Positions 1-42,377 of a DNA stretch of 64,000 nucleotides are shown here, piece after piece; the stretch's first letter is position 1; each line of letters opens with the position of its first letter. Under the pieces are notes generated by a model. It was not told the DNA's origin. It did not search any database and worked only from the letters and a program-made list of their open reading frames with translations. The DNA comes from Stegostoma tigrinum (lineage: Eukaryota). A program made the translations under genes and the position numbers. Location of the stretch: contig NC_081396.1 of assembly GCF_030684315.1 (NCBI RefSeq), forward strand, positions 1,612,001 to 1,676,000, read 5' to 3'.

Positions 1-869
1 GTAGGTCGGAGCGATTTGAACACACTGATGAGACAAATAAAAATTATATTCTCAATTCCTAAAATAGTACAGTAGAATCGTGTTTTGCTGCATTTACTGG
101 TACGTTTCATGGGAAACACGTTTATTTAGTTTTAGTTTGTTTCATAACAAATGGTATAAGTATATCTGAACAGATACACTGCAATGCCTGAAGGAGACAG
201 CTCACTGCTACATTTTCAGGAAGTGTTGGATATAGGTGCCAGCATTTCCATCTGTACGCAAACACTATCCATGAAATTTTAAAATAGAATCTATGGAACA
301 GTTTCTGCCCAGGTGTGAATCTGAATGGCGAGGCAGCAGAGATGCACATTCACACAAATCCTGCCAAACGAGAATGTACTTCGTTAAGTTTTCAGTTGAG
401 ACAAAAAATAATCAAAAAGCGAGTGGTTAAGACGGCACAGTCGACAAGAAGAAGATGATATAAAGAGTTCAAGTGTTTGGGATTACACCGCGCTTCGGCG
501 AGAAATCTAGGTACTTTTAACCAATAGGAAATGAACAGTTGAGATGTTGGGATGGTACCAAATAATCTGCTTTTAGGAAACATTTGTTTAGATAACTGTA
601 TTATGTAACTGTTAATTATTTGTAAATGATGTTAAAAAACAATTTTTTCTTCCTCTGTTGTGATTTATGGCTTATGTCAATAAATGCTGCAATACCCAGT
701 GATGCTCTGATCCAGGGAATTATTTTTTTTAAAGCGTACAAGGAAACTGTAAAATGTGATCAGATACATGAAATGCAGAAAAGAAGAGCCCTGCTGGAAT
801 GGCACTGAAAACACCAGATTCCACCTTCACTGTATCGTCACTGATGCCTCAAAATGTTGTTGCTGATTT

Positions 870-1215
870 TAAATCCTCAGAGCATGAGCTTGTCGACGTT
901 CTCCATCTCAGCTCCATTTTAGAAGGGAGAGGTGTGTAATTCCTCCTGTCTCCTGAAGCCAATGCCAAGCTCTTCTGTTCTGCTGATGTTGAGGGTCCGG
1001 TTATTATCTTTACACATCACCATCAAGCAGTTTATCTGTCTGTTGAAATGTGCCTCATCATTGTTTGAAATCCAGTTGAAAAAAAACACCTTGGTGTCAT
1101 GAATGACCTTGTAGATGTAGTCAGTACATACATTCATGATGTGCATGAAGTATAATCAGGGCAGAACAAGGATTCTTGCAGGACGCTGTTTTTGAAGATC
1201 GCCGGGGAGGACGTT
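870..1215 (-). mobile_element. Degenerate LINE RT fragment (Rex1/Babar or L2-like)
   Basis: ORF 919-1146 reads YKVIHDTKV..ISNNDEAHFNRQINCLMVMCKDNNRTLNISRTEELGIGFRR. This resembles the KFADDT..NNL.LN.SKTKELI.DFR region of this RT group. Confidence 0.65.
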
Positions 1216-1333
1216 TTATTTTGTATATTCAGGTTTTGTGACATGTGCGTGATGCGATGATGTTGTTCTTGTATCGCTTTGGGATGGGAAATCAATTGAA
1301 TTATTAATCTCAACAGATTGATAGGATATTTCG

Positions 1334-1338
<5 letters not shown>

Positions 1339-1365
<27 letters not shown>
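1339..1365. repeat. (TA)n microsatellite
   Basis: Directly visible. Confidence 0.95.
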
Positions 1366-1368
<3 letters not shown>

Positions 1369-2276
1369 TATTTGGATTATGTCCAGAAACCCACTCTGAG
1401 ATTTCCAGTAGTATCTACCAGCAGGCACACTCACGCCAAAAAGCAGAAACAATATGTTTTGCAAGTACAGTAACAGTGAGAGGGACTTTGTGCAAGAATC
1501 ATACTAAGCCACAACATTCAACAAGGAGGTATTGCTGACTGCAGAAATAATAATACTTTATTCCAAAGTGTATCTCCCGATCACCTTGCATTTGTAAAAT
1601 TTACTCAATCACTTTTTAAAAATATAAACGGCTTTTGAAGGAGTTTCCCTCCCTATGCGCACTATCAATGATTATTTTTTACACCAATGCAATCAGTTTC
1701 CTGAAAATTTGAAATGGTGTCGGTTCATCGGGTTCATTTAATGAGGGCTATTGCTGAGTCATTCCCAGTTAAAGCAAAATGAGAATATTTCGTTAGGAAA
1801 TGATTTTGAACTTGAAAACAACTTCCAACCACAGAGCCCCATAACATCAATTGGCACTTCAGGATCTCCCTTCCATGCTCTCATGTGTACTGCTCCCAGG
1901 ACCAATCCCGAACTATTGTTCTCAGCTCTCACGGACTGTATGAGTATATATTTTGAGCGACAATGTCCAGTAGCTCTACACTCAAAAAGAAAGAAGAAAG
2001 AACAAAGAAAATTACAGCACAGGAACACCTCAGGAGTTTGACTCCCTTTTGCGCTGGAGTTCCAAATATTCTTTCCATTCTACAGCCTATTGATCCAATT
2101 CAAGAACATGAAGTGTAAGTGCAAATCACATTATGTATTGCTGGTAGAACGTTGATCAAAACTGAAGCCACCAGCAAACTGGGTGTAAAAACAACAATTG
2201 TTGGCATATCTCAGTGAATCTTGTGCCTTCTGTGGAGACAAAGCAGAATAAATGTTTCGAGCCCAATGACCCTTCC

Positions 2277-2957
2277 TTATCTTGGAATATCCCCTCCCTA
2301 CCTCCCCACCTACACCCTCTCCACCTATCTTCTTTACTCTCCATCTTCGGTCCGCCTCCCCCTCTCTCCCTATTTATTCCAGTTCCCTCCCCCCATCCCC
2401 CTCTCTGATGAAGGGTCTAGGCCCGAAACGTCAGCTTTTGTGCTCCTGAGATGCTGCTTGGCCTGCTGTGTTCATCCAGCCTCACATTTTATTATCTTGG
2501 AATCCCCTCCCTACCTCCCCACCTACACCCTCTCCACCTATCTTCTTTACTCTCCATCTTCGGTCCGCCTCCCCCTCTCTCCCTATTTATTCCAGTTCCC
2601 TCCCCCCATCCCCCTCTCTGATGAAGGGTCTAGGCCCGAAACGTCAGCTTTTGTGCTCCTGAGATGCTGCTTGGCCTGCTGTGTTCATCCAGCCTCACAT
2701 TTTATTATCTTGGATCCCCTCCCTACCTCCCCACCTACACCCTCTCCACCTATCTTCTTTACTCTCCATCTTCGGTCCGCCTCCCCCTCTCTCCCTATTT
2801 ATTCCAGTTCCCTCCCCCCATCCCCCTCTCTGATGAAGGGTCTAGGCCCGAAACGTCAGCTTTTGTGCTCCTGAGATGCTGCTTGGCCTGCTGTGTTCAT
2901 CCAGCCTCACATTTTATTATCTTGGAATCTCCAGCATCTGCAGTTCCCATTATCTCT
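2277..2957 (+). repeat. Three near-identical tandem 212-213 bp units of a Penelope-type terminal repeat, each with a hammerhead-like motif
   Basis: Units start at 2291, 2504 and 2716. Each contains CTGATGAAGGGTCTAGGCCCGAAACGTC. The same sequence recurs near 32.2 kb and 61-61.9 kb. Confidence 0.9.
2405..2432 (+). ncRNA. Minimal type I hammerhead ribozyme-like motif (also at 2618-2645 and 2830-2857)
   Basis: Reads CUGAUGA-(A)-GGGU/CUAG/GCCC stem II-GAAAC-GUC. Stem III is loopless and palindromic (ACGU). Stem I has only about 2 bp by eye. Confidence 0.55.
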
Positions 2958-3268
2958 TCCATATTTATCATCTGTATTTCTTTTATTTTGAAATAAATAT
3001 CTCAGATCAGTTAAACATCAGTTTTAATGAGAAATGAGGCATTTATATTTACTGATCCTTTACTCTGTTCAGTGGAATGTCAGGTTAATATCGGAAGCAC
3101 TGAAACCTAAAAATGGAAATGGCCCCCAACTAATCTGATACAGAGATCACAGATGCCTCTTGTGACGGACGTAACATCAGACTAGTCTAGGACAATGCTC
3201 TGAGATTTTTTTCTCTCTTATTCAATATTCTGCAGATTTCTGAGACATAAATAAATCTCCTGTAATGG

Positions 3269-3998
3269 ATGTGGTTTCCCTTTTTCGTGGTAATCTTGGT
3301 GACTTCTATTGTTGTAATAAGTTTCAAAATTAGACAGCGTTGAATTTCTTTGCTTCTAAAAACGAAACATGCCAGGGTTCTTTAAATCAAGAACTGGGGT
3401 AGCAGAAAGAGTGATTGTGTCAAATCATCTGAGGCAGGAGGAGTTGGCCTAGCTAAAAAAAAGATGCACGAAAGACAGTCAGAGAGGCATACAGAAACAA
3501 ACAGGAACAAGGCGAAAAGAGAATTCTCCCCTAGATTGCCACCAAGGATACAGGCAGTTATTTTCATTGTGTGATTTAATTAGAGCATGCTGTAATTTAT
3601 TCTTCGTAACATTAGTTTCTTTTAATTGGCAGAACCCATCTAAATGTGCATTTAATTGTAGACTTCCACTCTCTTTAACATTTCGCTTCAGATCAGAGCA
3701 ATTCATTTTTTTTTGTCATTTTGCGGGATCCTTTGCTCATACAGTCAGATGGAGAAGAGTTCGCTTTCAGATGCACCTAAGCTACTGATTTTTATTCCTT
3801 ATTCCGGCACCATCAGTACCTACGGAGATAGACAGTGTATGCAGTCCGGAGGGACAAGATAGGTGCTGCTCAACTGAAGGCGGATTTCGCACAGGCCTGG
3901 TTTTCCGATGCAGTCCAACAGTCGAAGTAGTTGTAGCGATTGACAACCTGGGAGCTGATAGTGTTCGACAACACAGTCAATTACTGAGCAGTGAACCT
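3269..3998 (+). pseudogene. TCR alpha/delta-type V pseudogene, family A
   Basis: Leader 3269-3314 is MWFPFFVVILVTSIV with a damaged donor. The V exon from 3692 reads RDPLLIQSDGEEFAFRCT*ATDFYSLFRHHQY..AQLKADFAQAWFSDAVQQSK*L*RLTTWEL..DNTVNY*AVNL. It is collinear with the V exon at 39417 and carries several stops. Confidence 0.9.
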
Positions 3999-4007
3999 CA
4001 CCAGAAT

Positions 4008-4345
4008 GCAGGCTGGCAATTGGCTAATGTTATTAGTGCGAGACCATTAATCCATAGACTCAACTAACATTGTGGGGACCCTCTGAATCCCTCCACAGCA
4101 GATTATGGAATTTAAAAACTTGAAACTTCTGGAATTATAATTTTAATGATGACCATGAATCGATCGTCTTGGAAAAAAAAGACATCTGGTTCTCTAATGT
4201 CCTTTAGGGATTGAAACTGCCATCCTTACCTGGTCTTTTCCCTGTGTAACTCCAGACCCACAGCAATTTACGCTCACCTGCCCTCTGAGCATTTAGAAAT
4301 AAATGCTTCATAGCCTGTGACACCCTCATCCCGTTAATGAATGAA
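4008..4345 (+). mobile_element. Shark DeuSINE/SacSINE1-like SINE inserted in an RSS
   Basis: Characteristic body catctggttc..taatgtcctttaggga..ctgccatccttacctggtc..actccagacccacagcaat. Possible AGAAT target-site duplication. Confidence 0.75.
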
Positions 4346-4435
4346 AGAATTGTATCACGCCAAAAGCCGTACAAAAACTGGTGCAGCTTTCTGGGTCACA
4401 GCTGCTTTCTGATGAAGTTTGTTTATAACAGTGTT

Positions 4436-4474
4436 TATTTATCTCTGAGAGCCCATCTGGTTCCTGCCACCGTG
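4436..4474 (-). other. 23-RSS with degenerate nonamer
   Basis: CACGGTG + 23 nt + AGATAAATA directly after VYYCVLR. Confidence 0.75.
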
Positions 4475-4984
4475 TCTCGCAGCACACAGTAATAGACCAC
4501 ACTGTAAACGGGTGCAATTCACCGACAGTGAATTTCCCATCCCTTTTCAATGTACCCAGAGGAGAAATTATCGATTGACAATCTCCTAGAAAATACATAT
4601 ACTTTAGACTGTCGATCAAGAATATCTGGGACTTACGCATGTCCTATGGCTCAACTGTAAAATTTCTGTAAAATTGCTGTAAAATAGCTGAAATCAATGG
4701 TCACTAAATCTCCAAAAATCTGCATCTCTATAATTGTCAACTGCGGCACTATATCGGTATAATTAAAGCCTGCAGAAGTTTGGAAATTAAACGGGTTTCA
4801 TGGACAATTATAATCAATTTTAACAATTTAAGGGCATATAATGCAATACAGCGAAATGAAGACATGAGTGAGATTGCTGCAGTCGTATTATCTGCAAGTG
4901 TTAACTTTATTCATCTGAGGTACTTACGAATTAAGAGAGCGGCAAAGTCACAAATAAACAAATAGTAATAGCTGAAATATTCAC
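4475..4984 (-). pseudogene. TCR alpha/delta-type V pseudogene, family B
   Basis: Damaged leader 4928-4984 ends in gtaagt. The exon from 4769 reads GFNYTDIVPQLTIIEMQIFGDLVTIDF (Cys lost), then frameshifts, then ..KFTVGEL../VVYYCVLR followed by the RSS. Confidence 0.85.
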
Positions 4985-5029
4985 TAAGCGAATTGTTTTC
5001 ACAATGCCATTTGAAATTAAATTGTTTAC

Positions 5030-5322
5030 GATCAGACCTCACGGTAGATTTGCAGATAAGGAGCTGATGCTGAATTGCTTCAAGTCAGGACTGATGTTCT
5101 ATCATATGTGTCTCGTTACCAACTGCTTCATGTCAGGCACAATAACAAGGTGAAAGCAAAATTTGACACAGCTCCTTTTCTTCTCTCGACTCTGACATCA
5201 GAGGTCTGGTCAGATGATCACAAAATATTCATTGGGCTGGAGCCATTTGACCTTTTGAGCTTTCTCCTTCACTGAGTAATATTACAGTGATACACTCACG
5301 GACCACTTTCTGCACAGTTACC
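5030..5322 (+). pseudogene. Highly degenerate V-like relic with RSS-like end
   Basis: Fragments ELMLNC, KVKAKFD and KIFIGLEPFD, then TACAGTG + 24 nt + ACAGTTACC (5283-5322). Confidence 0.4.
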
Positions 5323-8300
5323 AACACCATTCTGTCCAATAAGATCTGCTGATCCGTCGTCATCAGTGGAAAGTAGAATATTTAGAAGTGCAACATCTGT
5401 TATATGATTACTCAATACAATTGAAATGAACATTATCTCCAATTCCGTTCATGTAGCTGAGTAAACCTTAATCTGGGTCATTGATGAGTGAGAACTAGTT
5501 TCGTTGCAATATTGGTGCTGCAATTAAATACACTGTTTCCTGATGATGAACAATTTTTACTGCTGATATAAAAGGTCAAATGGCTTCAGTCCAATGAATA
5601 TTTTGTGAACATGTCGTTTTGCTGTCGCTTCTTTCATTATATATGTTCTTGTTACAAAATGTTTTAAAATAGATTTTGATAGATCCAAAGTAAAATAACA
5701 AAAAAAGTTTATCTTTCCTCGAATTAAAAGAATAAATGCTTGCTAGTTTTCGTGTGTGAAGCAGGAACAGTTGTTTGACCGGATGTTATACTATCTGCTG
5801 CTTTGCCCTTAATACACTATTCAACATTACCCAACCCAGTACACTGGAAAAGGCGCTGATGTGTAGAAATGTCATTTCCCCTGTTTCAACCACCATCCGG
5901 ACAATGTTAAAGCACACTGTAGCATTAAATGTTGTTAGCAATGTGCACGAGGACAACTGCATCAACAAGTTTTATTCCTCTCAGCTTAATAAAGCTCACA
6001 AGATCATCAAACAAAATAGCAGCAATATCTCTATCCCTGAAAATGCTGCGCACCTCCTTGCCATGCAGTGAGTGAAGAAAAAATACAGGTTGAATCCTAG
6101 AAACAATCTTGAAAAATCCAGTTTGTAGTGAGGAGAGCGCACTCTCAAATCTAAGAACATCAACAATTGAGACTTGGCTTGGAGAGAACCACAAAGCCTG
6201 TAAAAATATGATGATGATAAAATGTACTATGCTGAACAGGAACAGGGTAGGATTCCTTGCCCAGTTTATTGATGTGCACAATCACTATTCATACCAGCAA
6301 CGCATTTTATAATTTGCTCTCTGTTATGTGTTCGTTTTTGACTAAATGTAACTGAACTGAACTTTATCTATCTCATCCTCAACTGCTACCCACCTAATTT
6401 AAAAGAAAATTAACGTCACTTCACAATAAACATTTTCATCTCAGTGACAGTCTGTGCTCCTGAGATAACGTAAACTCTTTTTTTGCTCTGAATGGCCTTG
6501 AACTTACTCGGTGTTATTGGAACTGCAGTGATCCAAGGTAACACATAAAAGTTTGTGAGAAATAAAATCCCACGGTGCTGAAGTTATTATATTTCCATGA
6601 GTGGATAATTGGCTGATGGGTTGGAAATACTGAGCAGGCAAAATGAGTCTTTCTTTTTTCACCCTGGCCTCCTGGAACTGACCCTCCACGGGGATCAGTA
6701 GTTGGATCACAAATTGGTATAACGTATATACATTTATGTCCTAGAGGAAAGATTATTGGATAATGAACAATCTTTGGGTGTCAGGAGGTGAGTTAATCCC
6801 TGTGCAATTATTACCCTCTGGCACACTCTTGCAGACAAGATATTTCCATGGCTCATCCATGTGTCTGGTGAGAAGACGTGATCAGGGCTTTTAGTGAAGA
6901 CAATGCGATTGACAATCAGGTATTATGGAGAGAAATTTCTTTTTTAGAAGTGGATCACAAACTAGCACTTGTGTGCAGCGAATGTCACTTGAAATGGCTT
7001 AAGTCACATGTGAATGCCAGCCACATCTTTCTGTATATAAAAACTAATTGTTCAAACAATTGGGGAATCACAAAATGATACTATACTATTGTCAGCAAAT
7101 GTTTCCATTTCTTCAGGCCACTTTGGCACAGCGGGTGACAATAGGTGATGCCATTAACTGTCACATAGTTCATCAGTATTCAATTCGGGATTGTGGGGTG
7201 GGATATACTCGGGCCACGGCGTATTCATCTTCCCATCAGGGAGCTGTTTTGGCGTCTGTAATTTCCAGCCCTAGGCCTTCCACTTCCAGTCCAATGGTAG
7301 AAAGGGTAACACTGACGAAGTAGATGAAAATAATGGGTACTTTGCACGAGTTAAATCAACTTCTGGGGCTGAGATAACTGGCCTCCAACAACCAATAATA
7401 ATTTTCTTTTTGTTGAGCTTGACTTAAAACAATCGAGGGGATTCCCACAATTCTCGTTGACTAGTTGCATGAAGTGACGTGTTGCCCACAGAGATATTTC
7501 CTGCCAGGCCACCTGTCGGCTCGGTCTCAGATACACTTCCAGTTCCTGAAATTGTTGCAATGGAAATTATGTTGCAGTTGCATTCAATGCGAAGCCTCGT
7601 CAGTGATTCGCTTTTAAGTGTCTTCAGAAGGAATGTTGAATGGCAACACTGGATTATTATGCTACCTACTCATTTAGTTGGATTCTGAAATTAGTTTTCG
7701 ATATTTTAAGAGTTATTCAAGTCAATAACGCAACTTATATATTCATTTGCAATAATCAGAACAAGTTCACATTAATAATTCCATCCCTGATACTGATAAA
7801 ATGCTGATTTTGAGGTTTCACACCAGTGCTCTTGGCTGCTTGACTCAGTAAACAGTGAAACGAGTGAACCATTTCTCACCTAACACAGATATTTCAAAAC
7901 TTCTCTCAATTGTCTTTGTTTCTCTGAATCTGGAGACTGAGATCTTGATTTGAGAAATCCATTGATCAGAATGCAAATTTGCTCCTAGGAAAAGTTGCAT
8001 TGTGCTTAATGGAAGTAGATAGCCTGGCAGTTCCTAAAAAGATTGACATCTGAAAGATATCTGAATGAAACGAAGTAGCTACAAATTCGACAAAACGCAA
8101 ACAAACTCAGCATAATGATATACACAAGGCCATTTCAATAGAATGTGTGCGAATTCAAGTGGTATTGATGTATCCATGAATCGCTCCATCTATGGAGACG
8201 CATGGAAGCTGGAGCAAGCCTTTCGAAACTTCAAACCTGTTTCACTATTGATCATGATTAAGGCTGTTCATCCAACACTAAATTCTAAGCCTTCTTTCTC

Positions 8301-8657: not shown

Positions 8658-9067
8658 GTTCTTCGCACAGTAATACATTCCAGCGTCCTCAAAGATGGTG
8701 TCCTCTATGAACATAACATGAGATTTATTCACTCGGTTTAACGATATTGTGTAGCGGCCAGTAGTCTTAACACCCTGATATAAAGAGTCGATAAATATTG
8801 GAAAGCCTGATGGCATTTGTCTGTACCAGGCTAGAGTATCGCCAGTAGCAAAGGACAGCTGACAGTCCAGTTCCGCTCTTTCTCCTTCAAGAGTTACCAT
8901 GTGATCAGCCTGTGACCTCTGATCCTCACAATAAACCACTGTAAGCAAAGAAATATCATTCTAACGCCATAAAATATCTTTGGATTAGCAAAACAAGACT
9001 TCTGATTAGAAAAAATATACTTACACAATATCAATATCATAAACGCTTCAAGCTGGAATACATTCAT
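8658..9067 (-). CDS. TRAV/TRDV: Apparently functional TCR alpha/delta-type V gene segment (leader 9067-9025, V exon 8938-8658)
   Basis: Leader MNVFQLEAFMILIL, then an 86-nt gtaagt..cttacag phase-1 intron. The open V exon has Cys23, WYRQ and DAGMYYC, followed by a 23-RSS. Confidence 0.88.
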
Positions 9068-10769: not shown

Positions 10770-13753
10770 AGAACATAGAAAATTACAGCACAGTACAGGC
10801 CTGTCGGCCCTCGATGTTGTGGCGACCTGTCATACCGTTCTCAAGCCCATCTAATCTACACTACTCCATGTAGGTCCATATGCTTATCCAATGACGACTT
10901 AAATGTACCTGAAGTTGGCGGATCTACTACTGTTGCATGCAAAGCGTTCCATTCCCTTACTACTCTCTGAGTAAAGAAACTACCTCTGACATCTGTCCTA
11001 TATCTTTCACCCCTCAATTTAAAGCTATGCCCCCTCGTGCTCACCGCCACCATCCTAGGAAAAAGGCTCTCCCTATCCACCCTATCTAACCCTCTGATTA
11101 TTTTATACTTTCCAATTAAGTCACCTCTCAACCTTCTTCTCTCTAATGAAAACAGCCTCAAGTCCCTCAGCCTTTCCTCGTAAGACCTTCCCTCCATACC
11201 AGGCAACATCCTAGTAAATCTCCTCTGCACCCTTTCCAAAGCTTCCACATCCTTCTTATAATGTGATGACCAGAACTGTACACAATACTCCAAGTGCGGC
11301 CGCACCAGAGTTTTGTACAGCTTCACCATAATCTCTTGGCTCTGGAACTCGATCCCTCAATTAATAAAAACTAAAACACTGTATGCCTTCTTAACAGCCC
11401 TGTCAACCTGGGTGGCAACTTTCAAGGATCTGTGCACATGGACACCGAGATCTCTCTGCTCATCTACACTACTAAGAATCTTGCCATTAGCCCAGTAATT
11501 TGCCTTCCGGTTACTCCTACCAAAGTGCATCACCTCACACTTGTCCGCATTAAACTCCATTTGCCACCTCTCAGCCCAGCTCTGCAGCTTATCTATTTCT
11601 CTCTGTAATCTGCAGCATCCTTCGTCACTATCCACAACTCCACTGACCTTAGTGTCGTCTGCAAATGTATTAACCCATCCTTCTACGCCCTCATCCAGGT
11701 CATTTATAAAAATGAGAAACAGCAGTGGACCCAACACCGACCCTTGCGGTACACCACGAGTAACTGGTCTCCAGGACGAACATTTCCCATCAACTACCAC
11801 CCTCTGTCTTCTTTCAGCAAGCCAATTTCCGATCCCAACTGCTATATCTCCCACAATTCCATTCCTCTGCATTTTGTACTTTCGCCTATTGTGGGGAACC
11901 TTATCGAACGCCTTGCTGAAATCCACATACATCACATCAACCGGTTTACTCTCATCTATCTGTTTGGTCGCCTTCTCAAAGAACTCAATAAGATTGTGAG
12001 GCACGACCTTCCCTTCTCAAAACCGTGGTGACTATCCCCAATCAATTTATTCTTTTCGAGATGATTATAAATCCTATCCGTTATGACTTTTTCCAACACA
12101 TTACCAACAAGTGAGGTAAGGCTCACTGGTCTGTAATTGCCAGGGTTGTCTCTACTCCCATGCTTGAACAGGGGAGCCACCTTTGCTATCCTCCAGTCAT
12201 CTGGCACTATTCCTGTAGACAATGATGAGTTAAAGATCAATGCCAGAGGCTTGGCGATCTCCTCGCTGGCTTCCCAGAGGATCCTAGGATAAATCTCATC
12301 CGGCCCAGGGGACTTATCTATCTTCTCCCTCTGAAGGATTTCTAATACCTCTTCCTTGTGAACCTCAATCCCACCTGGTCTAGTAACCTGTATCTCAGTA
12401 TTCTCCTCGACAGTATTGTCGTTTTCTAGAATGAAGACTGTTGAAAAATATTCATTTAGCGCTTCCCCTATCTCATCTGACTCCACACACAATTTACCAC
12501 TACTGTCCTTGATTGGGCCTAATCTTACTTTCGTCATTCTTTTATTCCTTTAATACCTTTAGAAAACCTTAGGGTTTACCCTGATCCTATCTGCCAACAA
12601 CTTCTCATGTCTCCACCTCGCTCTTCTGAGCTCTCTCTTTCAGTCTTTCCTGGCTAACTCGTAGCCCTCAAGTGCCCTAACTGAGCCTTTACATCTCATC
12701 CTAACATAAGCCTTATTCTTCCGCTTGACCAGAGATTCCACCTCATTCATAAACCACGGCTCCCGCACTCTACAGATTCCTCCCTGCCTGACAGGTACAT
12801 ACTTATCTAGGGCACACAGGAGCTTTTCCTTGAATAAGCTACACGTTTCTAATGTGCCCATCCCCTGTAGTTTCCTTCCCAATCCTATGCTCCCTAAATC
12901 TTGTCTAATCGTATTTGCCTTTCCCCCAGCTATAACTCTTGCCCAGTAGTATACACCTATCCCATTTCATCACTAAAGTAAACATAACAGAATTGTGATC
13001 GCTATCACTAAAGTGCTCACCTACTTCCAAATCTAACACCTGGCCAGTCTCATTACCCAGTACCAAATCTAATGTGGCCTCGCCCCTTGTTGGCCTATCT
13101 GCATACTCTGTCTGGAAGCCCTCCTGCACACTCTGGACAAAACCTGGCCCATGTATAGTACTCGAACTATAGTGTTCCCAGTCAATATCTGGAAAGTTGA
13201 AGCCCCCCATGACAACAACCCTGTCTCTCTCACTCCTATCGAGAATCATCTTTGTTATCCTTTCCTCTACATCTCTGGAACTATTCGGAGGCCAATAGAA
13301 AACTCCCAACTCCTTTCCTGTTTTTAACCTCAGCCCATACTACTTCAGTTGACGAGTCCCCAACATCCTTTCTGCAACTGCAATGCTGTCCTTGACCAAC
13401 AATGCCACACCTCCGCCCCTTTTAGCATCATCTCTGTTCTTACTGAAACATCTAAATCCCGGAACCTGCAACAACCATTCCTGTCCCTCCTCTATCCATG
13501 TCTCCGAAATGGCCACAACATCGAAGTCCCAGGTACTAACCCATGCTGCAAGTTTACCCACCTTATTCCGGACGCTCCTGGCATTGAAGTAGACACACTT
13601 CAAACCAACTTCTTGCTTGCCGGTGCCATATTGCTTCCCTGAAACTTTATTTGGGACCACCGTACGTTCAAACTTTTCTACAGTCGAACTACAATTTTGG
13701 TGCCCATCCCCCTGCTGAATTAATTTAAACCCACCCGAATAGCCTTAGCAAAT
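10770..13753 (-). mobile_element. CR1-clade LINE with nearly complete but disrupted ORF2 (APE endonuclease + RT)
   Basis: Endonuclease motifs YFNARS..DVVAISETW and SDHN. RT motifs PGNYRPVSLTS, DFSKAFDKV, GVPQGSVLGP and FADDTK. CR1 C-terminus RGHS.KL..FF.QRVV..WN.L and a tatgttc-type 3' tail. Stops and frameshifts present. Confidence 0.95.
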
Positions 13754-16074: not shown

Positions 16075-16355
16075 GACAACGAGGTTGATTGCACCTGCAC
16101 AGGCGATTCACATTCCTTATTCTGCTACCATCAGAACACAGGCAGACAGCTCAAGTTTTCAATTCAGACGTACAAGACTGAGGATGCTGAACTGAAAGCT
16201 AATTTTCATTCAAGCCGGTTGTCTGATGTAATCGACCATTCAAGTAAATTGTATTGATTGACGATCTTGGAGCTGCTAATGTTTGACAACGTTGTCTATT
16301 ACTATACAGTGAACCTCGCAGTAATAAGAACGAGTGGAAGCCTTGTACAGTAACT
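16075..16355 (+). pseudogene. TCR alpha/delta-type V pseudogene, family A, 5'-truncated, with degenerate 23-RSS
   Basis: Reads DCTCTGDSHSLFCYHQNTGRQLKF..AELKANFHSSRLSDVIDHSSKLY*LTILELLMFDNVVYYYTVN. The RSS is CGCAGTA + 23 nt + ACAGTAACT (16317-16355), and its spacer end AAGCCTTGT is shared with the RSS at 39721. Confidence 0.88.
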
Positions 16356-23727: not shown

Positions 23728-26360
23728 AGGACAATAGGAGCATTAGGAGGCCATTCGACCCTTCGAGCATGCGGCACCATTTACCACGGCCGTGGCTGAT
23801 CGTTCCTACTCAAAAATAAACAAATCCTGCTTTCTCCCAGTAACTTTTGATCTCATTCGCACAAGTACTATATCTAGCCTCCTCCTGAATATGTTGAATG
23901 TCCTTTTTCATTAACTACTCCTTCTACACCATTACTTCTGTCGGCTCACTACTCTTTGAATGAAGCAATGTCTCCTCCTCTCTGTCATAAATGGTCCACC
24001 CCAAGATCTCTGACTGCAACCGCTGGTTATGGACACACTCTCCATTGGGAACATCCTTCCTGCATCTACCCCACCTAGACACATTTGCATTTCATGACTC
24101 TGTACAAGATCACCTCTCGTTCATCTCAGTTGCAGTGGAAACAATCTTAGCCTCTTCAATCTATTCTCATATATCAGTTCTGCCATTTCTGGAATCAAAC
24201 CGGTAACCATTTGTAACACTTCCTCGACAGTAAGAGCATCTTTCCTGAGAAAAGGAAACAAAAACTGCCCGCAATATTCTAGATGCGGCCTCACTATGGC
24301 CCTGTATAACAGCAAAAGAAGAAAAAATAGTTCTGGCCTGAACTTGAATGCTCTCACTTTTAAGACCAGCATGCTTTTTGCCTTCTTTGCCACCAGATGC
24401 AATTGCTTGCTTCTTTGACCGACAGGTGCACAAGGACACTGAGGTCTCGCTGCATAGTACCCTGTCCCAATTTAAAGCAATTCAAGACGCAATCTGCCTA
24501 CTCGTTATTGCTACAAATGTAAATTCCCTCACGTTTCCCTTATTGTACAAAATGCGGAGGAATGGGATTGTGGGAGATATAGCAGTTTGGATCGGAAAGT
24601 GGCTTGCTGAAAGAAGACAGAGGGTGGTCGTTGATGGGAAATGTTCATCCTGGAGACCAGTTACTAGTGGTGTACCGCAAGGGTCGGTGTTGGGTCCATT
24701 GCTATTTGTCATTTTTATAAATGACCTGGATGAGGGCGTAGAAGGATGGGTTAGTAAATTTGCAGACGACACTAAGGTCGGTGGAGTTGTGGATAGTGAC
24801 GAAGGATGCAATAGGTTGCAGAGAGAAATAGATAAGCTGCAGAGCTGGGCTGAGAGGTGGCAAATGGAGTTTAATGCAGACAAGTGTCAGATGATGCACT
24901 TTGGTAGGTGTAACTGGAAGGCAAAGTACAGGGCTAATGGTAAGATTCTTAGTAGTGTAGATGAGCAGAGAGATCTCGGTGTCCATGTACACAGATCCTT
25001 GAAAGCTTCCACCCAGGTTGACAGGGCTGTTAAGAAGGCATACAGTGTTTTAGTTTTTATTAATTGAGGGATCGAGTTCCGGAGCCAAGAGATTATGGTG
25101 AAGCTGTACAAAACTCTGAAGCGGCCGCACTTGGAGTATTGCGTACAGTTGGTCATCACATTATAAGAAGGAGGTGGAAGCTTTGGAAAGGGTGCAGAGG
25201 AGATTTACTAGAATGTTGCCTGGTATGGAGGGAAGTTCTTACGAGGAAAGGCTGAGGGACTTGAGGCTGTTTTCATTAGAGAGACGAAAGTTGAGAGGTG
25301 ACTTAATTGAAACGTATAAAATAATCAGAGGGTTAGATAGGGTGGATAGGGAGAGCCTTTTTCCTAGGATGGTGACGGCGAGCACGAGGGGGCATAGCTT
25401 TAAATTGAGGGGTGAAAGATATAGGACAGATGTCAGAGGTAGTTTCTTTACTCAGAGAGTAGTAAGGGAATGGAACGCTTTGCCTGCAACGGTAATAGAT
25501 TCGCCACCTTTAGGTACATTTAAGGCGTCATTGGATAAGTATATGGACGTACATGGAATGGGGTAGGTTAGATCGGCTTGAGATCGGTATGACAGGTCGG
25601 CACAACATCGAGAGCCGAAGGGCTTGTACTGTGCTGTAATGTTGTATGTTCTATACTCTATGTGTCCAAATTACTCTACAACCTCCATCGATTTCCTCAC
25701 CCATTCAAACTGCGCAGATCATGCTGAAGGATCCCAGCATCCCCATCACATTTCACCCTCCTACCTAAATTGGCATCATCTTCAAAAGTTGAGATCTTAC
25801 CTGTTAACCACTGCATCAAAGTTGGTGATATATATTGTGAATAGCTGTGGTCCCAGCATCGATCTTTGTGGCACCCTACAGCTTGCTAATTTGAAAATTG
25901 TCTGCCAATTTGAAGATGACACATGAATTCCTACTCCTTGCTTCCTGTCTGGCAACCAGTTTTCTTTTCCTCTCAATGCACTTCCTCCAATCCCTTACGC
26001 TTTACTCTTGAACAATCAACTCTAATGCAGGACTTTATTAAACAGTGTCTGAAATCCCAAATATATCACATAAACTGGCTCCTGCCTCCCCCTCGTCAAC
26101 TGAACGAGTTACATCATCATAGAATACCAACACTTTTATCAAACAGGATTTCCTTTCCAAAATTCCATGCTGGCTCTTTCTGTCCCTGGCACTGCATTCC
26201 AAATGCTCCTCTTTAAATCCCTTCATAATGGATTCAGACTTTTCCCAAAAAACTGATGTTAGACTTCCTAACCTATATTTCCTTGAGCTCTTTCTACTTC
26301 CCTTTTTGCATATTAAAGTGACATTAGCTACCCTGTAATTGTAGTAGCATAGTGTTCTCT
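23728..26360 (-). mobile_element. Older CR1 LINE split by a younger CR1 insertion
   Basis: Minus-strand LYRAIVRPHLEYCGQF.. before 24540, and RT remnants (KSCLIKVLVFYDDVT..DEG) after 25660. Confidence 0.75.
24540..25662 (+). mobile_element. Young 5'-truncated CR1 LINE, same subfamily as 10770-13753
   Basis: GVPQGSVLGP..KFADDTK through to the 3' tail. Near-identical to the reverse complement of 10770-11890. Confidence 0.95.
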
Positions 26361-26829: not shown

Positions 26830-27220
26830 TCTCCCTACCTCCCCACCTACACTCACCTCTACTGGCTCCATCACTGACTCTTTAATTTTTCTGCCTCCTC
26901 TCCACCTATATTCTCCTCAATCCATCTTCGACCCGCCTCTCCTTCTCTCCCTAATTATTTCAGAACCCTCTTCTCCTCCCCATGAAGTGTCTCGGCCTGA
27001 AACGTCACCTTTTCTACTCCTTCGATGTGCTTGGCCTGTGGTGTTCGTACAGTTCGACACCTAGTTAGCAGAGATAATCGACACGTTTTTATATGCTGAC
27101 ATTTTCCAAGCTACCATTAGTTCTGAGGAAGGGTCACCAGACCTGAAACGGTAATTCTGTATTTTCCTTCACAGATGCTGCCAGATCAGCTGAGCTTTTT
27201 TCCACAGCTTTATTTTTGAC
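26830..27220 (+). mobile_element. Two decayed Penelope-type termini with hammerhead-like relics
   Basis: catgaagtgtctcggcctgaaacgtc and ctgaggaagggtcaccagacctgaaacgg..cacagatgctgccaga. Confidence 0.55.
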
Positions 27221-28149: not shown

Positions 28150-31100
28150 AGGGATAGGCCGGGAGATCAGCGTCAGGTATTCAATAAGTTCTTGTAGATG
28201 ATTCGAAGGGTAGGACTTCAATGCATTTGGAAAAGCAAGAATTGAGTATGAATCATCAATATGGCTTTGTCCGTGGGTAACCATACTGCACTTACTTGAT
28301 TAAGTGTCTTGAAGAGGTGGCAAAGTCGACTGATGATGGGAGGTTGCTAGTCCTTGGATATATGGACTGCAGCATAGCTGCCGATAAGGCTTCATATGGT
28401 AGGCTGGTTAGTAAGTTTTCATCGCATTGGACGCCAGGTCCTGGACAATTGGATACGCAATTGGCTTGAAAGCATGAGGAAGACAGTGGTGGTAAAAATA
28501 CATTTTGGACTGGAGGCCAGTTACCAAAGGTGTCTTCAGATCACTGTATTTATCAGTTATATAAATGGTTTGTATTGAATAAAAGATGCATGTTTAGAAA
28601 GTTTATTTTAATTTTATAAATTTATGTGATGAGGGTGTTGGTGACCAGGTAGCATTCACTGTTCATCCCTTTTAGCAAAGAGGGGTGTTACAAGTCAACC
28701 ACATTGTTTTGGGTCTGGAGTCACATGTGGGCCAGAACGGTTGAGGAGATCAGTTTCCTTCCTTAAAGGGCAAAAGAGAGCCAGATTTTTTTAAACTAAC
28801 AATCCACAATGGATTCATGGCCATCATTAGGCTCTTTATTGAAGTCAATTTCCAACATTGGTAATGGCGGGATTCAAACCTGTGTTCCCAGAACATTACC
28901 AAGGCTTCTAGATTTCCAGTCCAGGGACAATACCACTAAAGCATTGCCTCTCCTACAATCCCCATTAACGGTGGTGCATTGTACAATGAAGAAAGTGATC
29001 TCAAAGTAAATTTGGAGTCTGACTAAATGCGCCAATGACCCGAAGAGAGGCACATGGTGTTTTATTTGGATAATTGTGAACATGTAGAAATTTGGTAAAG
29101 CGAACCAATGCAGGAATTATTTAATGGTAGGGTCCTGGGGAGTTTTGCTGAACAAAGATAAATAGGAGTGCAGGTGCATATTTCCTTGAAACTGGAATCC
29201 CATGTTGACAGGTTTATAATATTACATTTGGCACGTTTCCCCTCGTTGGTCAGTGTATTGAAAATAGGAGCTGAAGTGTCTTTTTACAGTTGCACAAGAC
29301 TTTGGTCAAGTCACGTCTAGAATGCTGCACCCGATTCTGTTCACCATCCTGCAGGACGCACAGGGTTAAACTTGGAAATGTACGGATAACATTCACAAGC
29401 ATGGGCTAATGTCAGATTTGAGTGACCGGGAGAAACTGAATATATGCTGAAAAACATTTTTCATTTGGAGAGTTGAAGGCTGAGTTGTGACCTTATAGAG
29501 ATTTATTTAAGTTTCAGGTGCATGGATAGGATAAATAGCAAAAGACTTGTTCCCACTGTTGAGAAGACCAAAACTAGGTGCATAGGATTGTGGTGAGAGG
29601 AGAAAATGTGAAAGGCATCATCGGTGAAACGATTTTTTCAGAGTGTGTCGTTTGTCTGCAGTAAGAGGCCAGTGGTACAGTTGAGTCCAATTTCAATACT
29701 TAAAAGGCTTTGATAAGATTTGTAGTTTGTGTTGTGGATGATCTTGCAAACTTGTTTGCTGAAGGGTTAGTGCTCTGTCCTGCTTGTTATTTATAAGCTG
29801 TTTGTTTGCTCAGATGGTTGGCATCAATTCTGTTCCAGGTCACTGTGTGTGTGTTTGATGGAGTTCCAATTGGAACGCCAGTCCTCCACAAACTCTCTGG
29901 TAGGCTGTACATGGCTTGTGCTATTAGAAATGATCTGATCCAGTCGATTTCGTGTCCTTCTCTGTCCGTGTATGCTGAAGCTATTGCGAGCTGGCCATGT
30001 CTCTTGGAGGCTAGTTGGTGTTCGTGTATCCTTATTGTCAGTTTTCTTCGAGTTTATCATTTGTAATGTTTCTAACAGTCCTTACATGGTATATTTTATA
30101 TTACATTGATTTAATTGCTTGTGGGTACAGGAGCCTTTATGTTCGTCAGTAACTGTCGTAGGGTGGTTGTTGGTTTGTGGTCTACCGTGATGCCTGGGGT
30201 CTGAGCAGTTTTGTGGTCATCTCTGATATGTCTCTGCTGGACACAAGGATGACTAATGTGTCTGGCCGCATTGGATCTTCCTGCTGTGATCTTTCGCAGA
30301 GGGAATGGTGGATTATGCTTTGTGAGTATTCATTCCATTTAGAAGGAGCTCAAAACTGTGAAAATGCAGAACAGGTGCACTTATATGGAGTTTTTAAAAG
30401 GAATAGATGCCCAAAAAGCACAATGCACTTTTACCACCACAACAAACCACAGCACGAAGATGTAACACACCCAGACACACACATCACCCTGCAGTACATC
30501 CGCGAGATATCAGAGATGATCACAAGACTACTCATACAAGTAAGCATCAGGGTAGCCCATAAACCAACACCCATCCTCCGACAGCTACTGAAGAGCACAA
30601 AGGATACCATACCCACAGCCAATGAAACAAACGTCATACAAAACTTATCATGCAAGACCATTGACAAATATTACATTGGAAAAACTCGAAGGACATTGAC
30701 AGTCAGGATATACGAACCCAAACAACCACCAAGAGGCAGGCTCAGTTCTCACTGTTCTCAGAATACACGAAAAGAAATGGACACAAATTCGACTTGGACA
30801 ACGCATCCATAATATCACATGCCATACAGAGATATGCCAGAGAATTCCTTGTAGTCTGGATATCCAACTGAAACTGCATAAATACAGACATTGAATTGGG
30901 ACCAATATACAAACCAGTGACAAACAAAACCGGAAATGATGCCAACCTCTCGAGCTGACTGAGACATATAAATACCGTGCGGTACATAACAACAACACTA
31001 TACTGGAGGTGCATTGAAGAAGTTAACTAGCAGGGCGGCAAAATATCTTCACTCAAAAACATTGGTTCGACGAGCAAGTCTACAGCTTCATTTAAACGTT

Positions 31101-31294: not shown

Positions 31295-34080
31295 AAAGTC
31301 ATAGAGAAGTCCATCGTGGAAGCAAAGTCTTCGTTTAGACATTTGTCCCATGTCTCTCTAACCCCTCCCTATTCTTGAGCGTATCCACATGCATTTTAAA
31401 TTTTGTAAATGTACCAGCTTACAGCACGTCCTCTGGTAGGTCATACACACATTACCCTCTGCATGATTCTTTTGCCCCTCAACTCCCTTAAAAATCCTGC
31501 CACTCTTCACTTTACGCTTTTGCCCTCTAGCTTTGGACCCCTCAAAAAGGCATTAATATTCACACAATCCATATCCATCATAATTTTGTCAATCTCATCG
31601 ATTCTCGTCGTTACTTCTTTTAAAAAAATCTCGTTCAAGTTACTGTGATAGAATTTCCCACTCACAAAGTCATGTTGGCTTGTCCCAATCAGTCCTTCCC
31701 TTGGAAATGTATCTAAATCCTCCACCTCAACTAAAAATCATTTCCCTAGCTTCCCTAGGGCGTTCGAGGCTACACCTGAACAAGATATTTGGATGTGTTT
31801 TCCTTTGTGCATTTTTAGACATCCAGTACTTACTGGCCAATAATGTGAGCATCTTTTTTCAAGTTTCCCCATGTACTCCATGTTCCATATCCTGCTCTAT
31901 TGTAAACACTGATCAAAACGCTTATTTATTAACTTCCCGAACTCCTGTGGTTCCACACATAAGAGGCCTTTATGATCGTTCACGAGCCCTATTATTTACA
32001 TTGTTACTCTTTCGTCCAAAATGTATTTCAAGAATTCGTTTGGATTCCCCTTAACCCTATTTGCCAAAAGAATCCGATCTCTCCTTTTTGCCCATCTGAT
32101 TTCCCTATTAAGCATGTGATCTGGGATAATGGGAACTCCAGTTGCTGGAGAATCCAAGATAAAAAAGTGTGGGGCTGGATGAACACAGCAGGTCAAGCAG
32201 CATTTTAGGAGAACAAAAGCTGACGTCTCGGGCCTAGATCCTTCATCAGAAAAAACCTGACGAAGGGTCTAGGCCCAAAACGTCACCTTTTGTGCTCCTA
32301 ACATGCTGCTTGGCCTGCTGTGTTCATCCAGGCCCACATTTGCTACCCCTATTAAGTATGCTCCTACTGTCTTTATACTCTTCTGGGAATTCAATAGATC
32401 CTGTATTTCAAACCTGATATCTGTTTCCCACTTATTCTTAAGCAAAATATCAGTTTTTTTCTAGTTATTCCACATTTCTGACTCCCAAAAGCCTCACCCT
32501 TCAGTCTAACAGGAATATGCTGTCTCTGGAGTATCGTTATCCCATTTTTAATGGCTTCCCATTTGTCAGTCATGCCTATACGTGCGAACATTCACCTCTA
32601 AACAACTATTGAAAGGTCATGCCTAACACCGGCAAAATTGACTTTACTCCAACTTAGAATTTTAACTTTTAGGTATGAGCTGTCCTATTCCACTATTATT
32701 TTTTTAAAAATGTACGGATATGATCACTGCACCGAAGTGCTCCCCCACTGACGCCTCAGACACTTGCCCTACCTTCTTTCCCAAGAGCAAGTCAAATTTT
32801 CCACCTTTTCCAGTATGCTCATCCACACACTGAATCTGATTTTCTTTTCTCGTAGTCAACTAAAAATTTGTCTCCCTTAAAGTCCTTGACGCTATGGCAG
32901 CCGCAGACTATGACTGGAAAGTTGAAGTCGCCGAAGAAACCACCTTATTATTCTTATAGATAACTGACATCTGCTTACAAAATTGTTTTTCAATTTCTCG
33001 TTGCTTATTGTGGTGATTATCTGTAGTCTGATTCCAATAAAGTGAGCATCCGTTGCTTATTTCTCAGTCCCTGCCGAATAAGTTCTGTCAACGTACTCCC
33101 AGGAATATTCACTCAAAGAACAGCCACAATGCTATCCCGATGCAAAGACACGACTCACCTTCTATCTTATCCTCTTTTCTATTCTTCCTTTAGCATCGAG
33201 GCTCTCGAACATTGAACTGTTATACTTGTTCATCGGTGAGCCACGTGTGTAGTTGCTATGATACCTCTGTCTTATCTTCTCAACCATGCCCTGGCTTCAT
33301 TTGTCTTACTTGTTTGACTTTTTTGCATTGAAATAAATGCAGTCTGGGTTATTAGTTCTACCGCATTCTGTATTTTGTTCTAGGCAGCTTTGACTGTTTG
33401 TCTTGCTGCTTTTCCTAAGTACGCCAGTCTTGGACGAACATCGTTTTTTTCAGTCTACATGGCTTCCAATCTTTCTGTCGCTAGTTTATTTCCCCCAGAG
33501 CAGCATTAGCAAATGTTACCATCATTATATTGTCTCCTTTCTCATTCAGGTGCCATCCGTTTTTTTTCTTTAAAAGGTCACTTCTACTGCAAAACATATT
33601 CGAATGAGCCAAAAATGTAAATCAATCTCCTGTGCACTATATCCTTAACCATGCATTCATCTGCTTTTTCCTGGTATCCCTATCCACATTATCTCGTGAA
33701 ACAACAGGAAATCTAGATATTGCTGTCCTCAAGGACATTTGTTTTCATTTCCTGCCGAACTTACTTTATTCTCTCCTCAGAATCTCGCCTTTTTTACCCA
33801 CCTATGTTGTTACTTCTGTTGTATACAACGAACTCCTGCTAGTCATGTTGTCCTTTGAGAAAACTCTGCATATTCTCTGAATTATGCTTGATCCCGAACC
33901 AAGGAGGCAAGACACCTTTCTGATATCTCTTTCTGATGTTGGCTGTACAAAGATCGGTCTGTGCTTCTGTAGAAAGAATGCACTATCACATTAGAGCGGT
34001 TAGAACATGACATGCCACTCTTTAAAATAGAACTAGCCACAGTACAAAATTAAACTGGTTGTCCGTGCTGCATTCCCCTC
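31295..34080 (-). mobile_element. Old internally deleted CR1 LINE (ORF1 end to 3' end)
   Basis: Remnants GLIGTSQHDFVSGK, LNREIRWAKR..LANRVKGNPNEF and KWEAIKNGI, plus an ORF1 esterase-like relic near 33900. Confidence 0.65.
32124..32341. repeat. Head-to-head palindrome of two Penelope-type termini
   Basis: The minus arm ends at catcag (32249), followed by a 7-nt spacer. The plus arm starts at CTGACGA (32257). Confidence 0.85.
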
Positions 34081-37035: not shown

Positions 37036-37514
37036 ATGCGTTTACTGATTCCTTAGTGATAATCATGACCGTGTTGCTTGGTATATCAGAGTGAATATCA
37101 CCATTGTGTGTTTGATTAGATTTATATATGCAGATTTTTAACATGTTGCATGCATTTGTTTCAGGAATGAACGGGCATAATTCCTTTTTCCAGGATCCAC
37201 TTGAATAGATCGCTGAGGAAGGCCATAATATAATATTAAACTGCAATTACACAACAGCAGAATTCGCTGGAGAAACGCTTTTTTTGGTAGATCCAGTCTC
37301 CTGGGAAATTTCCAAGATATTTACTGCACAGATGCAAAGTGCAGCAAGGGGGCAGGTCTATCGATTTTCCTGACCGATTCTCTGCTAATTTGAACAAAAG
37401 CAAGAAAACAGTGCATTTAAATATCACCAACGTTGACGTCTCCGACTCTGCCATCTACTGCTGTGCTCTGAACTCCACATTGATATGCAGAATATTTTGG
37501 CACAAACAAAAGCC
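37036..37514 (+). pseudogene. TCR alpha/delta-type V pseudogene with 23-RSS
   Basis: Frameshifted leader 37036-37080. The exon from 37165 reads QDPLE*IAEEGHNIILNCNYT..LF(+1)W*IQSPGKFPRYLL..DRFSANLNKSKKTVHLNITNVDVSDSAIYCCALN. RSS is CACATTG + 23 nt + ACAAAAGCC (37476-37514). Confidence 0.92.
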
Positions 37515-39720: not shown

Positions 39721-39759
39721 CACAGTGATAGAAACGTATAAAAGCCTTGTACAATAACT
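39721..39759 (+). other. 23-RSS
   Basis: Consensus heptamer CACAGTG + 23 nt + ACAATAACT. Confidence 0.95.
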
Positions 39760-41839: not shown

Positions 41840-42377
41840 TCACTGATCATGATCGACTCGGACAAAAATACTTTCACTGGAATGTACTGAAGCGTACTGC
41901 AGGGCACACAGAGAGATTGCACTGTCGTAGTTGAGGAATTTGCTGATTGCTAGTTCGATGATCTTGCCAGTTTTATTAGAAGTGAATCGATCACTGATGC
42001 CTGTATTCTTGAGCACACTCAAACCAATAAGCTGAGACATGAACTCTGGATGCTGTACTGGACGCTGACTATACCAGTATGCATAATCATTACAGCAGCT
42101 GGTCTTCAAGTTACAGGTAAGTGTGATGTTCTTTTCCTCTTTGACAAATATTTTGCCTAACCACTGTTCCACTGCGTTCTGGTGGCTCCATTCTAATACA
42201 TGAAAGGATGTTAAAAGGGCAGTAGTGTCAGGCTCATTTTGGCCTTTATAATTGGCACCATCTCATTGATAAGCAATAGCATTCATATTGTGACAATCTC
42301 CACCTTTTTTTTCTGAGAAGAACATACTTACTGAGAATAAATACGATGATGAGGAATGTCAAGAAATATTTCCTCAT
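41840..42377 (-). CDS. Open-frame TCR V segment without recognisable RSS (leader 42377-42332, V exon from 42192, V ends about 41895, stop at 41840)
   Basis: Leader MRKYFLTFLIIVFIL, then a 139-nt gtaagt..tag intron. Exon reads NITLTCNLKTSCCNDYAYWYSQRP..DRFT..DSAISLCALQ. The heptamer position reads CGCTTCA and no nonamer follows. Confidence 0.8.

What the first reader, a model, noticed from the sequence alone, without database searches (positions are those of the whole stretch)
2277..2957. Tandem 213-bp units each carrying a minimal, dimer-type hammerhead ribozyme: candidate shark retrozyme or circular RNA replicon
Seen: three almost identical head-to-tail units, each with CUGAUGA-A-[GGGU CUAG GCCC]-GAAAC-GUC and no ORF homology. 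Established: Penelope-like elements and metazoan non-LTR retrozymes carry type I hammerheads in tandem units of a few hundred nt. Loopless palindromic stem III forms cleave as dimers, and an extra A after A9 occurs in a natural viroid hammerhead (CChMVd). Inference: read-through transcription could self-cleave after GUC (2432, 2645, 2857) to release monomers of about 213 nt. These could circularise and be copied by a Penelope RT. Caveat: stem I looks very short.
Basis: partly seen in the sequence, partly recalled or inferred. Interest (0 to 1): 0.7.

Follow-up and report, generated by a model that had tools for sequence, protein, structure and literature searches.

The report
Stuttered Penelope end with three hammerheads
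Three head-to-tail copies of the hammerhead-bearing end of a very common Penelope-type jumping gene sit here and nowhere else in this genome, likely stitched together when the copying enzyme restarted during one recent insertion rather than copied from a circular RNA; across the family, an excess of copies begins exactly at the ribozyme's predicted cut site, which likely records real cutting in the animal.

Summary
In detail: three units, 99% alike, each with an intact minimal hammerhead core and GUC at 2432, 2645 and 2857. Each unit is the 3' end (pLTR) of a young Penelope-like element with RT, a CX4CxxC linker and GIY-YIG. Its exact 33-nt core occurs 78,083 times. The unit junction occurs only here, so this is no dispersed retrozyme family. 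The three junctions differ by 1-3 nt and fall in the family's usual 3'-end zone, as in other arrays. That favours repeated template jumps by the RT over rolling-circle copying. The predicted circle is unstructured and the active dimer fold is 32 kcal/mol above the minimum. Expression and long-read support were not obtained. Side result: family copies begin at the predicted cut site 3,622 times, against 258-949 at four neighbouring positions, a likely footprint of cleavage in vivo. This scan reached the same general reading on other genomes.

The parts
2222..2276 (-). Decayed end of an older, different Penelope-type element with a relic hammerhead; the array interrupts it (start boundary approximate)
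   Evidence: Sequence read directly; the same relic without the array is in the ~66-71% identical paralogue L119
2277..2288 (+). 12-nt stub matching family positions +60..+71 after the cut site; likely an aborted fourth round of copying; forms junction J0
   Evidence: a contig covering 1999/2000-2316 with no differences in 4 of 4 runs of one sample
2289..2501 (+). Unit 1: family positions -143..+69 (3' UTR and pLTR of the Penelope-like element)
   Evidence: 0 mismatches in 212 nt against the single copy in L016
2405..2432 (+). Minimal hammerhead core 1; predicted cut after 2432; stem I only 2403-2404 with 2433-2434
2502..2713 (+). Unit 2: -143..+68; junction J1 in front of it has 3 nt of microhomology
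2618..2645 (+). Minimal hammerhead core 2; predicted cut after 2645
2714..2957 (+). Unit 3: -143..+100, including the tail; junction J2 in front of it has 1 nt of microhomology
   Evidence: 1 mismatch in 244 nt against L016, at the last base
2830..2857 (+). Minimal hammerhead core 3; predicted cut after 2857
2922..2957 (+). About 35-nt Penelope 'tail' between the family's two 3'-end classes (+56..+70 and +97..+110)
   Evidence: 20 and 9 of 30 sampled copies end in these classes; tail described in PMC8557442 and PMC11167929

Best explanation
The triplet is three copies of the hammerhead-bearing 3' end of a young Penelope-like retroelement family, present at this one locus, and was likely made in a single insertion in which the element's reverse transcriptase copied the same short RNA stretch repeatedly. 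Shown: the unit is the family's pLTR, the junction is unique, the junctions differ from one another, the 3' ends match the family's two end classes, and a paralogous site is empty. Inferred: the RT started at the tail (+100), ran to -143, jumped back on 1-3 nt of microhomology to +68..+72, did so twice more and stopped after 12 nt. Predicted: the naked RNA folds into an inactive rod and would need the element's protein to cleave; the array has left no daughter copies and is most likely a dead-end by-product.
For: Family: 78,083 exact cores; upstream of dispersed copies lie RT (FLRYIDD), CX4CxxC and GIY-YIG. Unique junction: 3 of 3 exact hits are this array; 1 hit with up to 2 mismatches, this array; of 40 scored candidates only this locus covers the whole monomer. 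The 99 same-strand core pairs spaced 198-228 nt show no peak at 212-213; none of the 30 examined starts at -143. In 61 loci, 23 arrays gave 37 direct junctions: 12 donors at +68..+72 (2 are ours), and 7 of 10 multi-junction arrays (ours included) have unequal junctions. 3' ends of 30 unbiased copies: 20 at +56..+70, 9 at +97..+110, 1 at +21. Empty paralogue. Active dimer -16.4 against minimum -48.9 kcal/mol.
Against: All three units start at the same base (-143), a position seen in none of the other arrays examined; a circle or a DNA duplication would also give that. 3 of 10 multi-junction arrays have identical junctions, so other routes operate in this family. No clear target-site duplication: 0-5 nt, unresolved, whereas several other arrays show 8-15 nt (read by eye). 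The junction differences are only 1-3 nt and were not confirmed by reads. Only 30 of 99 and 30 of 48 tandem hits were examined. Folding energies ignore tertiary contacts and proteins.
Confidence: 0.62

Rival explanations
1. Local DNA-level tandem duplication (slippage or unequal exchange on the short ATC microhomology) of one 5'-truncated copy after it inserted.
For: Same -143 start in all units; microhomology at J1 and J2; single locus; long or higher-order arrays elsewhere in the family look DNA-amplified (L106; nine hits 208 bp apart on C2).
Against: A duplicated junction should be identical, yet J0, J1 and J2 differ while 212 nt of unit show no mismatch; donors fall in a zone used at many independent loci; the 12-nt stub needs a separate event.
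Confidence: 0.15
2. Rolling-circle reverse transcription of a 213-nt hammerhead-made circle from a parent array.
For: Intact cores in every unit; unit size within the 150-450 bp range of PMC7229834; 3.1 copies with a partial unit at the 5' end; a 5'-end peak at the cut site suggests that the family's hammerhead does cut.
Against: A parent array with the same junction must exist, and none is in the assembly; junctions are unequal; unit 3 carries a tail that such a circle would lack; the circle is unstructured; stem I has 2 bp and the active fold is disfavoured; 1 of 9 Xenopus dimers cleaved in vitro.
Confidence: 0.1
3. Assembly artefact: one unit expanded to three, or the junction differences are consensus errors.
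For: The assembly is the only source here that shows J1 and J2; J1 and J2 differ by one A in a short run.
Against: Units are otherwise error-free across long C runs; both flanks and J0 are in contigs; the same kind of unequal junction recurs at many loci.
Confidence: 0.1

Closest known systems
EN+ Penelope-like elements, Neptune/Nematis type: 5'-truncated, partial-tandem insertions with pLTR and 30-40 bp tail (PMC8557442, passages seen; PMC11167929, parts 1-2 of 4 read)
   Same: RT followed by CX4CxxC linker and C-terminal GIY-YIG in the parent; 5' truncation; inverted 5' copies; two 3'-end classes about 35 nt apart; tandem pLTRs.
   Different: No ORF left here; three near-identical pLTR pieces with unequal junctions. 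Neptune against Nematis was not tested by a tree, and no full-length parent was recovered.
Minimal type I hammerheads of metazoan PLE pLTRs (PMC4209133, parts 1-2 of 4 read)
   Same: [quoted passage not shown]
   Different: Stem II 4 bp (7-8 bp in the schistosome motifs) and stem I 2 bp (4-5 bp there; 2 bp in D. virilis). Stem-loop II is nearly palindromic, so two copies are predicted to pair with each other into an inactive rod.
Metazoan non-LTR retrozymes (PMC7229834, part 2 of 6 and passages read; bioRxiv 10.64898/2026.07.22.740005, parts 1-3 of 5 read, supplements closed)
   Same: Head-to-tail units of a few hundred bases, each with a type I hammerhead, no protein, derived from a PLE pLTR. 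The preprint reports such arrays in its one chondrichthyan genome.
   Different: Minimal rather than canonical hammerhead; single locus; GC 54%; monomer not self-paired; no RNA evidence; unequal junctions.

Membership tests
EN+ Penelope-like element terminus (Neptune/Nematis type) | Same sequence is the 3' end of copies encoding RT plus C-terminal GIY-YIG | tested here: met
   L002, L048, L115, L117; Pfam RVT_1 E 3.1e-05 and GIY-YIG E 6e-04 and 2e-03, all below the curated cut-offs
EN+ Penelope-like element terminus (Neptune/Nematis type) | CX2-5CxxC linker between RT and EN | tested here: met
   CNRRKCYTC in the translations; motif definition in PMC8557442
EN+ Penelope-like element terminus (Neptune/Nematis type) | 5' truncation, inverted 5' copies and an optional 30-40 bp tail | tested here: met
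   30 unbiased copies; unit 3 has the tail, units 1 and 2 do not
EN+ Penelope-like element terminus (Neptune/Nematis type) | Clade placement by RT phylogeny | not tested
PLE minimal hammerhead | Conserved core, extra nucleotide after A9, G10.1-C11.1, palindromic loopless stem III | tested here: met
   against the description in PMC4209133
PLE minimal hammerhead | Self-cleavage at the predicted site | tested here: inconclusive
   No assay possible. Indirect support: 5'-end peak at +1. Against for naked RNA: active fold 32.5 kcal/mol above the minimum
Non-LTR retrozyme, operational definition (bioRxiv 10.64898/2026.07.22.740005) | TRF tandem repeat with two or more consecutive units holding a canonical or minimal hammerhead of MFE below -5 kcal/mol | tested here: met
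   2395-2445 folds at -11.4 kcal/mol, though in the non-catalytic hairpin; the authors' rnabob descriptor was not run
Non-LTR retrozyme, biological sense (PMC7229834) | The same unit recurs at many loci as a family | tested here: not met
   Junction found only here; no length peak
Non-LTR retrozyme, biological sense (PMC7229834) | Canonical type I hammerhead with loop 1-loop 2 contacts | tested here: not met
   Stem I 2 bp, no defined loop 1
Non-LTR retrozyme, biological sense (PMC7229834) | Highly self-paired monomer, GC below 50% | tested here: not met
   Circular fold -22.8 kcal/mol, shuffles -23.4 +/- 3.2, 32% paired, GC 54%
Non-LTR retrozyme, biological sense (PMC7229834) | Expressed as linear and circular monomer RNA | not testable with these tools
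   No run on record as RNA was listed
Non-LTR retrozyme, biological sense (PMC7229834) | Target-site duplication longer than 4 bp, when present | tested here: inconclusive
   Either a 5-nt repeat or a blunt insertion fits the paralogue

The most novel reading that the evidence does not exclude
The minimal hammerhead of this Penelope family cuts in vivo, and thousands of genomic copies starting exactly at the scissile bond are its fossil record. The triplet is a newborn retrozyme: made by RT template jumps, transcribed from its own pLTR starts just upstream of each core, and cut with the help of the PLE protein into 213- and 212-nt monomers that can be circularised. The genome would then hold every stage of retrozyme birth. 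I put the cleavage footprint alone at about 0.55; the probability given is for the whole case.
Probability: 0.15. Interest if true: 0.65.

Novelty: new member of a known kind. Interest (0 to 1): 0.32.

Why it matters
The array itself is an ordinary product of a known element class. Two things give it some value. First, its unequal junctions, shared with other arrays, point to repeated RT template jumps as the step that first makes tandem hammerhead units, a step that the retrozyme-origin preprint leaves to later local amplification. Second, whether PLE minimal hammerheads cut in vivo is open: activity in vitro is low or needs the protein, and RNA-seq reads ending at the cut were not found in anole. 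A one-nucleotide peak of genomic 5' ends at the predicted cut would be indirect in vivo evidence, testable in any genome rich in PLEs.

Tried and rejected
Rfam, 1-8000, E<=10: no hammerhead family; uninformative for minimal motifs. Sequencing runs: no RNA holder listed; no evidence either way. Contigs of X1, X4, X5 and X6 laid on 2465-2540: no listed piece spans J1 or J2 (longest piece about 40 nt); the tool states that a hole proves nothing, and short low-depth links between very deep repeat nodes are probably pruned (my inference), so the artefact question is open. Full-length parent: four 6-10 kb stretches gave only truncated or inverted RT-EN copies; none was recovered, so the 5' UTR and ORF start are not described. 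The -4 classification was mis-indexed and is replaced. Coding role: one frame is open across units 1-2 and endlessly round the 213-nt circle, with no in-frame ATG in the unit; judged a chance result of the length being a multiple of 3. Paper searches: hammerhead + Penelope + shark gave 4 papers, none on shark PLEs; shark genome + Penelope + Neptune + transposable elements gave 0; a search for truncated copies at the cleavage site gave 3 unrelated papers. These are limited searches of an incomplete library. Earlier findings by sequence: none.

Full report
Observation. The window has three head-to-tail units at 2277-2957 (TRF period 213, 3.1 copies, 99% matches). Each holds the 28-nt core CUGAUGA-A-GGGU-CUAG-GCCC-GAAAC-GUC, ending at 2432, 2645 and 2857, so cut-to-cut monomers are 213 and 212 nt. 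Below, positions are counted from the C of GUC as 0. Stem II has 4 bp, stem III is the loopless palindrome ACGU, and stem I has 2 contiguous bp. Rfam reports no hammerhead here. The anatomy fits the minimal hammerheads described for Penelope-like elements (PLEs) in PMC4209133 (parts 1-2 of 4 read).

What the unit is. The exact 33-nt core occurs 78,083 times in this 3.2-Gb genome, the reversed control 0 times. Upstream of dispersed copies the sequence runs into an ORF with an RT motif (FLRYIDD), a CNRRKCYTC linker and a GIY-YIG domain. Pfam gives RVT_1 and GIY-YIG, both below the curated cut-offs. PMC8557442 (passages) names the CX2-5CxxC linker as typical of the Neptune and Nematis clades; I made no tree. 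Unit 1 has 0 mismatches in 212 nt and unit 3 with its tail 1 in 244 nt against the single copy in L016, so the array is very young. In the first 30 exact copies on C1, 3' ends fall at +56..+70 (20), +97..+110 (9) and +21 (1). These two classes match the optional 30-40 bp PLE tail, which PMC11167929 (parts 1-2 of 4) traces to two RT initiation sites. Units 1 and 2 end in the short class and unit 3 in the long class.

Insertion site. A paralogous stretch on the same contig (L119, 66-71% identical) lacks the array. The array interrupts a decayed minus-strand hammerhead relic of an older family that the paralogue shares. A 5-nt target duplication or a blunt insertion both fit. The locus is a cluster of V-set segments, with a V pseudogene about 750 bp downstream on the same strand.

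Is it a retrozyme family? No sign of one. The junction pattern has 3 hits in the genome, all in this array, and J1 with up to 2 mismatches has 1 hit, itself. A DNA search with the monomer covered all 213 nt only here, among 40 scored of 128 candidates. There are 99 same-strand core pairs spaced 198-228 nt, with 2 each at 213, 214 and 215 and no peak near 212-213. Of the 30 examined, none starts at -143, and many are separate stubs with unrelated DNA between. Another 48 pairs are spaced 90-120 nt, of which 30 were examined. As a circle the monomer folds at -22.8 kcal/mol against -23.4 +/- 3.2 for 200 shuffles, 32% paired, GC 54%. PMC7229834 (part 2 of 6 and passages) describes canonical hammerheads, GC below 50% and highly self-paired circles. 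By the looser definition of bioRxiv 10.64898/2026.07.22.740005 (parts 1-3 of 5) the array would count as a retrozyme; that preprint finds such arrays in one chondrichthyan genome, derives them from pLTRs, and saw cleavage in 1 of 9 Xenopus dimers. Its supplements were closed and may list this family.

How it arose. The three junctions differ: after TTATCTTGG come AAT, A, or nothing, before the common start at -143. Copying round one circle, or duplicating DNA, should repeat one junction, and the rest of the unit is error-free. Across 61 loci (23 arrays, 37 direct junctions after removing duplicates), 12 donors lie at +68..+72 (2 of them ours), and 7 of 10 arrays with two or more junctions have unequal ones (ours included); 3 have identical ones. 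L072, for example, is a trimer with two different linkers. I infer that the RT began at the tail, ran to -143, jumped back on short microhomology to about +70 three times, and stopped after 12 nt. Why all rounds end at -143 is unexplained; one RNA molecule broken there would do it. Rolling-circle copying also needs a parent with the same junction, which the assembly lacks, and would not supply the tail.

Would it cut? With two cores in one RNA, the minimum-energy fold pairs the near-palindromic stem-loop II and the core of one copy with those of the next, giving an inactive rod at -48.9 kcal/mol; the constrained double hammerhead scores -16.4. This ignores tertiary contacts and proteins. In PMC11167929 the anole PLE hammerhead cut only with the protein present, and no RNA-seq reads ended at the cut.

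Side result: a footprint at the cut site. I counted family copies whose match starts at a given base with two non-matching letters before it: -4, 258; 0, 949; +1, 3,622; +2, 729; +3, 614. True truncations in the samples were 20 of 20 (one borderline), 11 of 20, 29 of 30, 16 of 20 and 14 of 20. Of the 30 at +1, 12 are fold-backs on the AGCT palindrome, which can count on both strands, and about 5 more have AGC microhomology (read by eye). Without fold-backs the estimate is about 2,000, without both about 1,450, against about 430-580 at 0, +2 and +3. The roughly 520 at 0 are about what +1 ends followed by a chance C would give (my arithmetic). The other 4-nt palindrome, ACGT at -4, yields far fewer, so a palindrome alone does not explain the peak. 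The simplest reading is RT run-off at the 5' end of hammerhead-cut RNA. Rivals are microhomology and RT stalling at the base of the core hairpin, which ends at +2; samples are small and all come from the start of C1. An earlier AI note (e1-10277189) says that young copies in another genome start before the motif rather than at the cut; I see that larger class too (8 of 30 at -29..-32) and, besides it, this smaller peak. One search found no paper on it, in a limited library.

Reads. Contigs of four runs of one sample cover 1999/2000-2316 (J0) and 2934/2936-3800 without differences. None listed spans J1 or J2, which the tool says proves nothing. No RNA run was listed. Artefact and expression both stay open.

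Verdict. A real, very young, single-locus triplication of a PLE pLTR with intact minimal hammerheads: a new member of a known kind. It works like a PLE partial-tandem insertion by-product (0.62). It passes the operational retrozyme definition but fails three biological features tested (family spread, canonical hammerhead, self-paired circle). Earlier notes of this scan reached the same general reading on other genomes; they are not independent evidence. Interest 0.32, most of it from the junction pattern and the cut-site footprint.

Noticed in passing
G000, family-wide (L120-L229): Copies whose match begins at a given base with two non-matching letters before it: 258 at -4, 949 at 0, 3,622 at +1 (the predicted cut), 729 at +2, 614 at +3. 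True truncations in samples: 20/20, 11/20, 29/30, 16/20, 14/20. 12 of the 30 at +1 are fold-backs on the AGCT palindrome, which can count on both strands.
   Followed up: partly
G000, L024-L113: 8 of 30 unbiased copies and 20 of 37 junction acceptors start at -27..-32, just upstream of the core, often after an extra G; likely the capped transcription start (inference; also noted by earlier agents).
   Followed up: partly
window 3715-4014 (+), 8664-8888 (-), 16090-16350 (+), 37279-37485 (+), 39308-39754 (+), 41867-42139 (-): Immunoglobulin V-set segments, some with stops; resemblance to T-cell receptor V genes is from recall. The array lies about 750 bp upstream of, and on the same strand as, a V pseudogene.
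   Followed up: partly
window 26978-27007 (+), 32221-32285 (divergent pair), 61071-61102 (-), 61800-61832 (+): Five further, more decayed hammerhead-core copies of the same or a related family; 60997-61884 is an inverted pair.
   Followed up: no
G000:C2:58043055-58044747: Nine hits spaced 208 bp, each starting at -4 of the family: a longer tandem array apparently without the full core.
   Followed up: no
L086, L089, L093, L103, L109, L110: Very short (31-59 bp) tandem hammerhead units inside single insertions, with donors at +3/4, +10/12 and +18/19.
   Followed up: partly
window 5214-5256 and 5570-5612: 43-nt inverted repeats, 93% complementary, 313 nt apart; possibly a small non-autonomous DNA transposon.
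   Followed up: no
window 10859-13744 (-), 24348-25563 (+), 60163-60579 (-), 30162-30809 (+): LINE-like RT fragments (resemblance to CR1/L2 from recall) and one PLE-like fragment with no Pfam hit.
   Followed up: no
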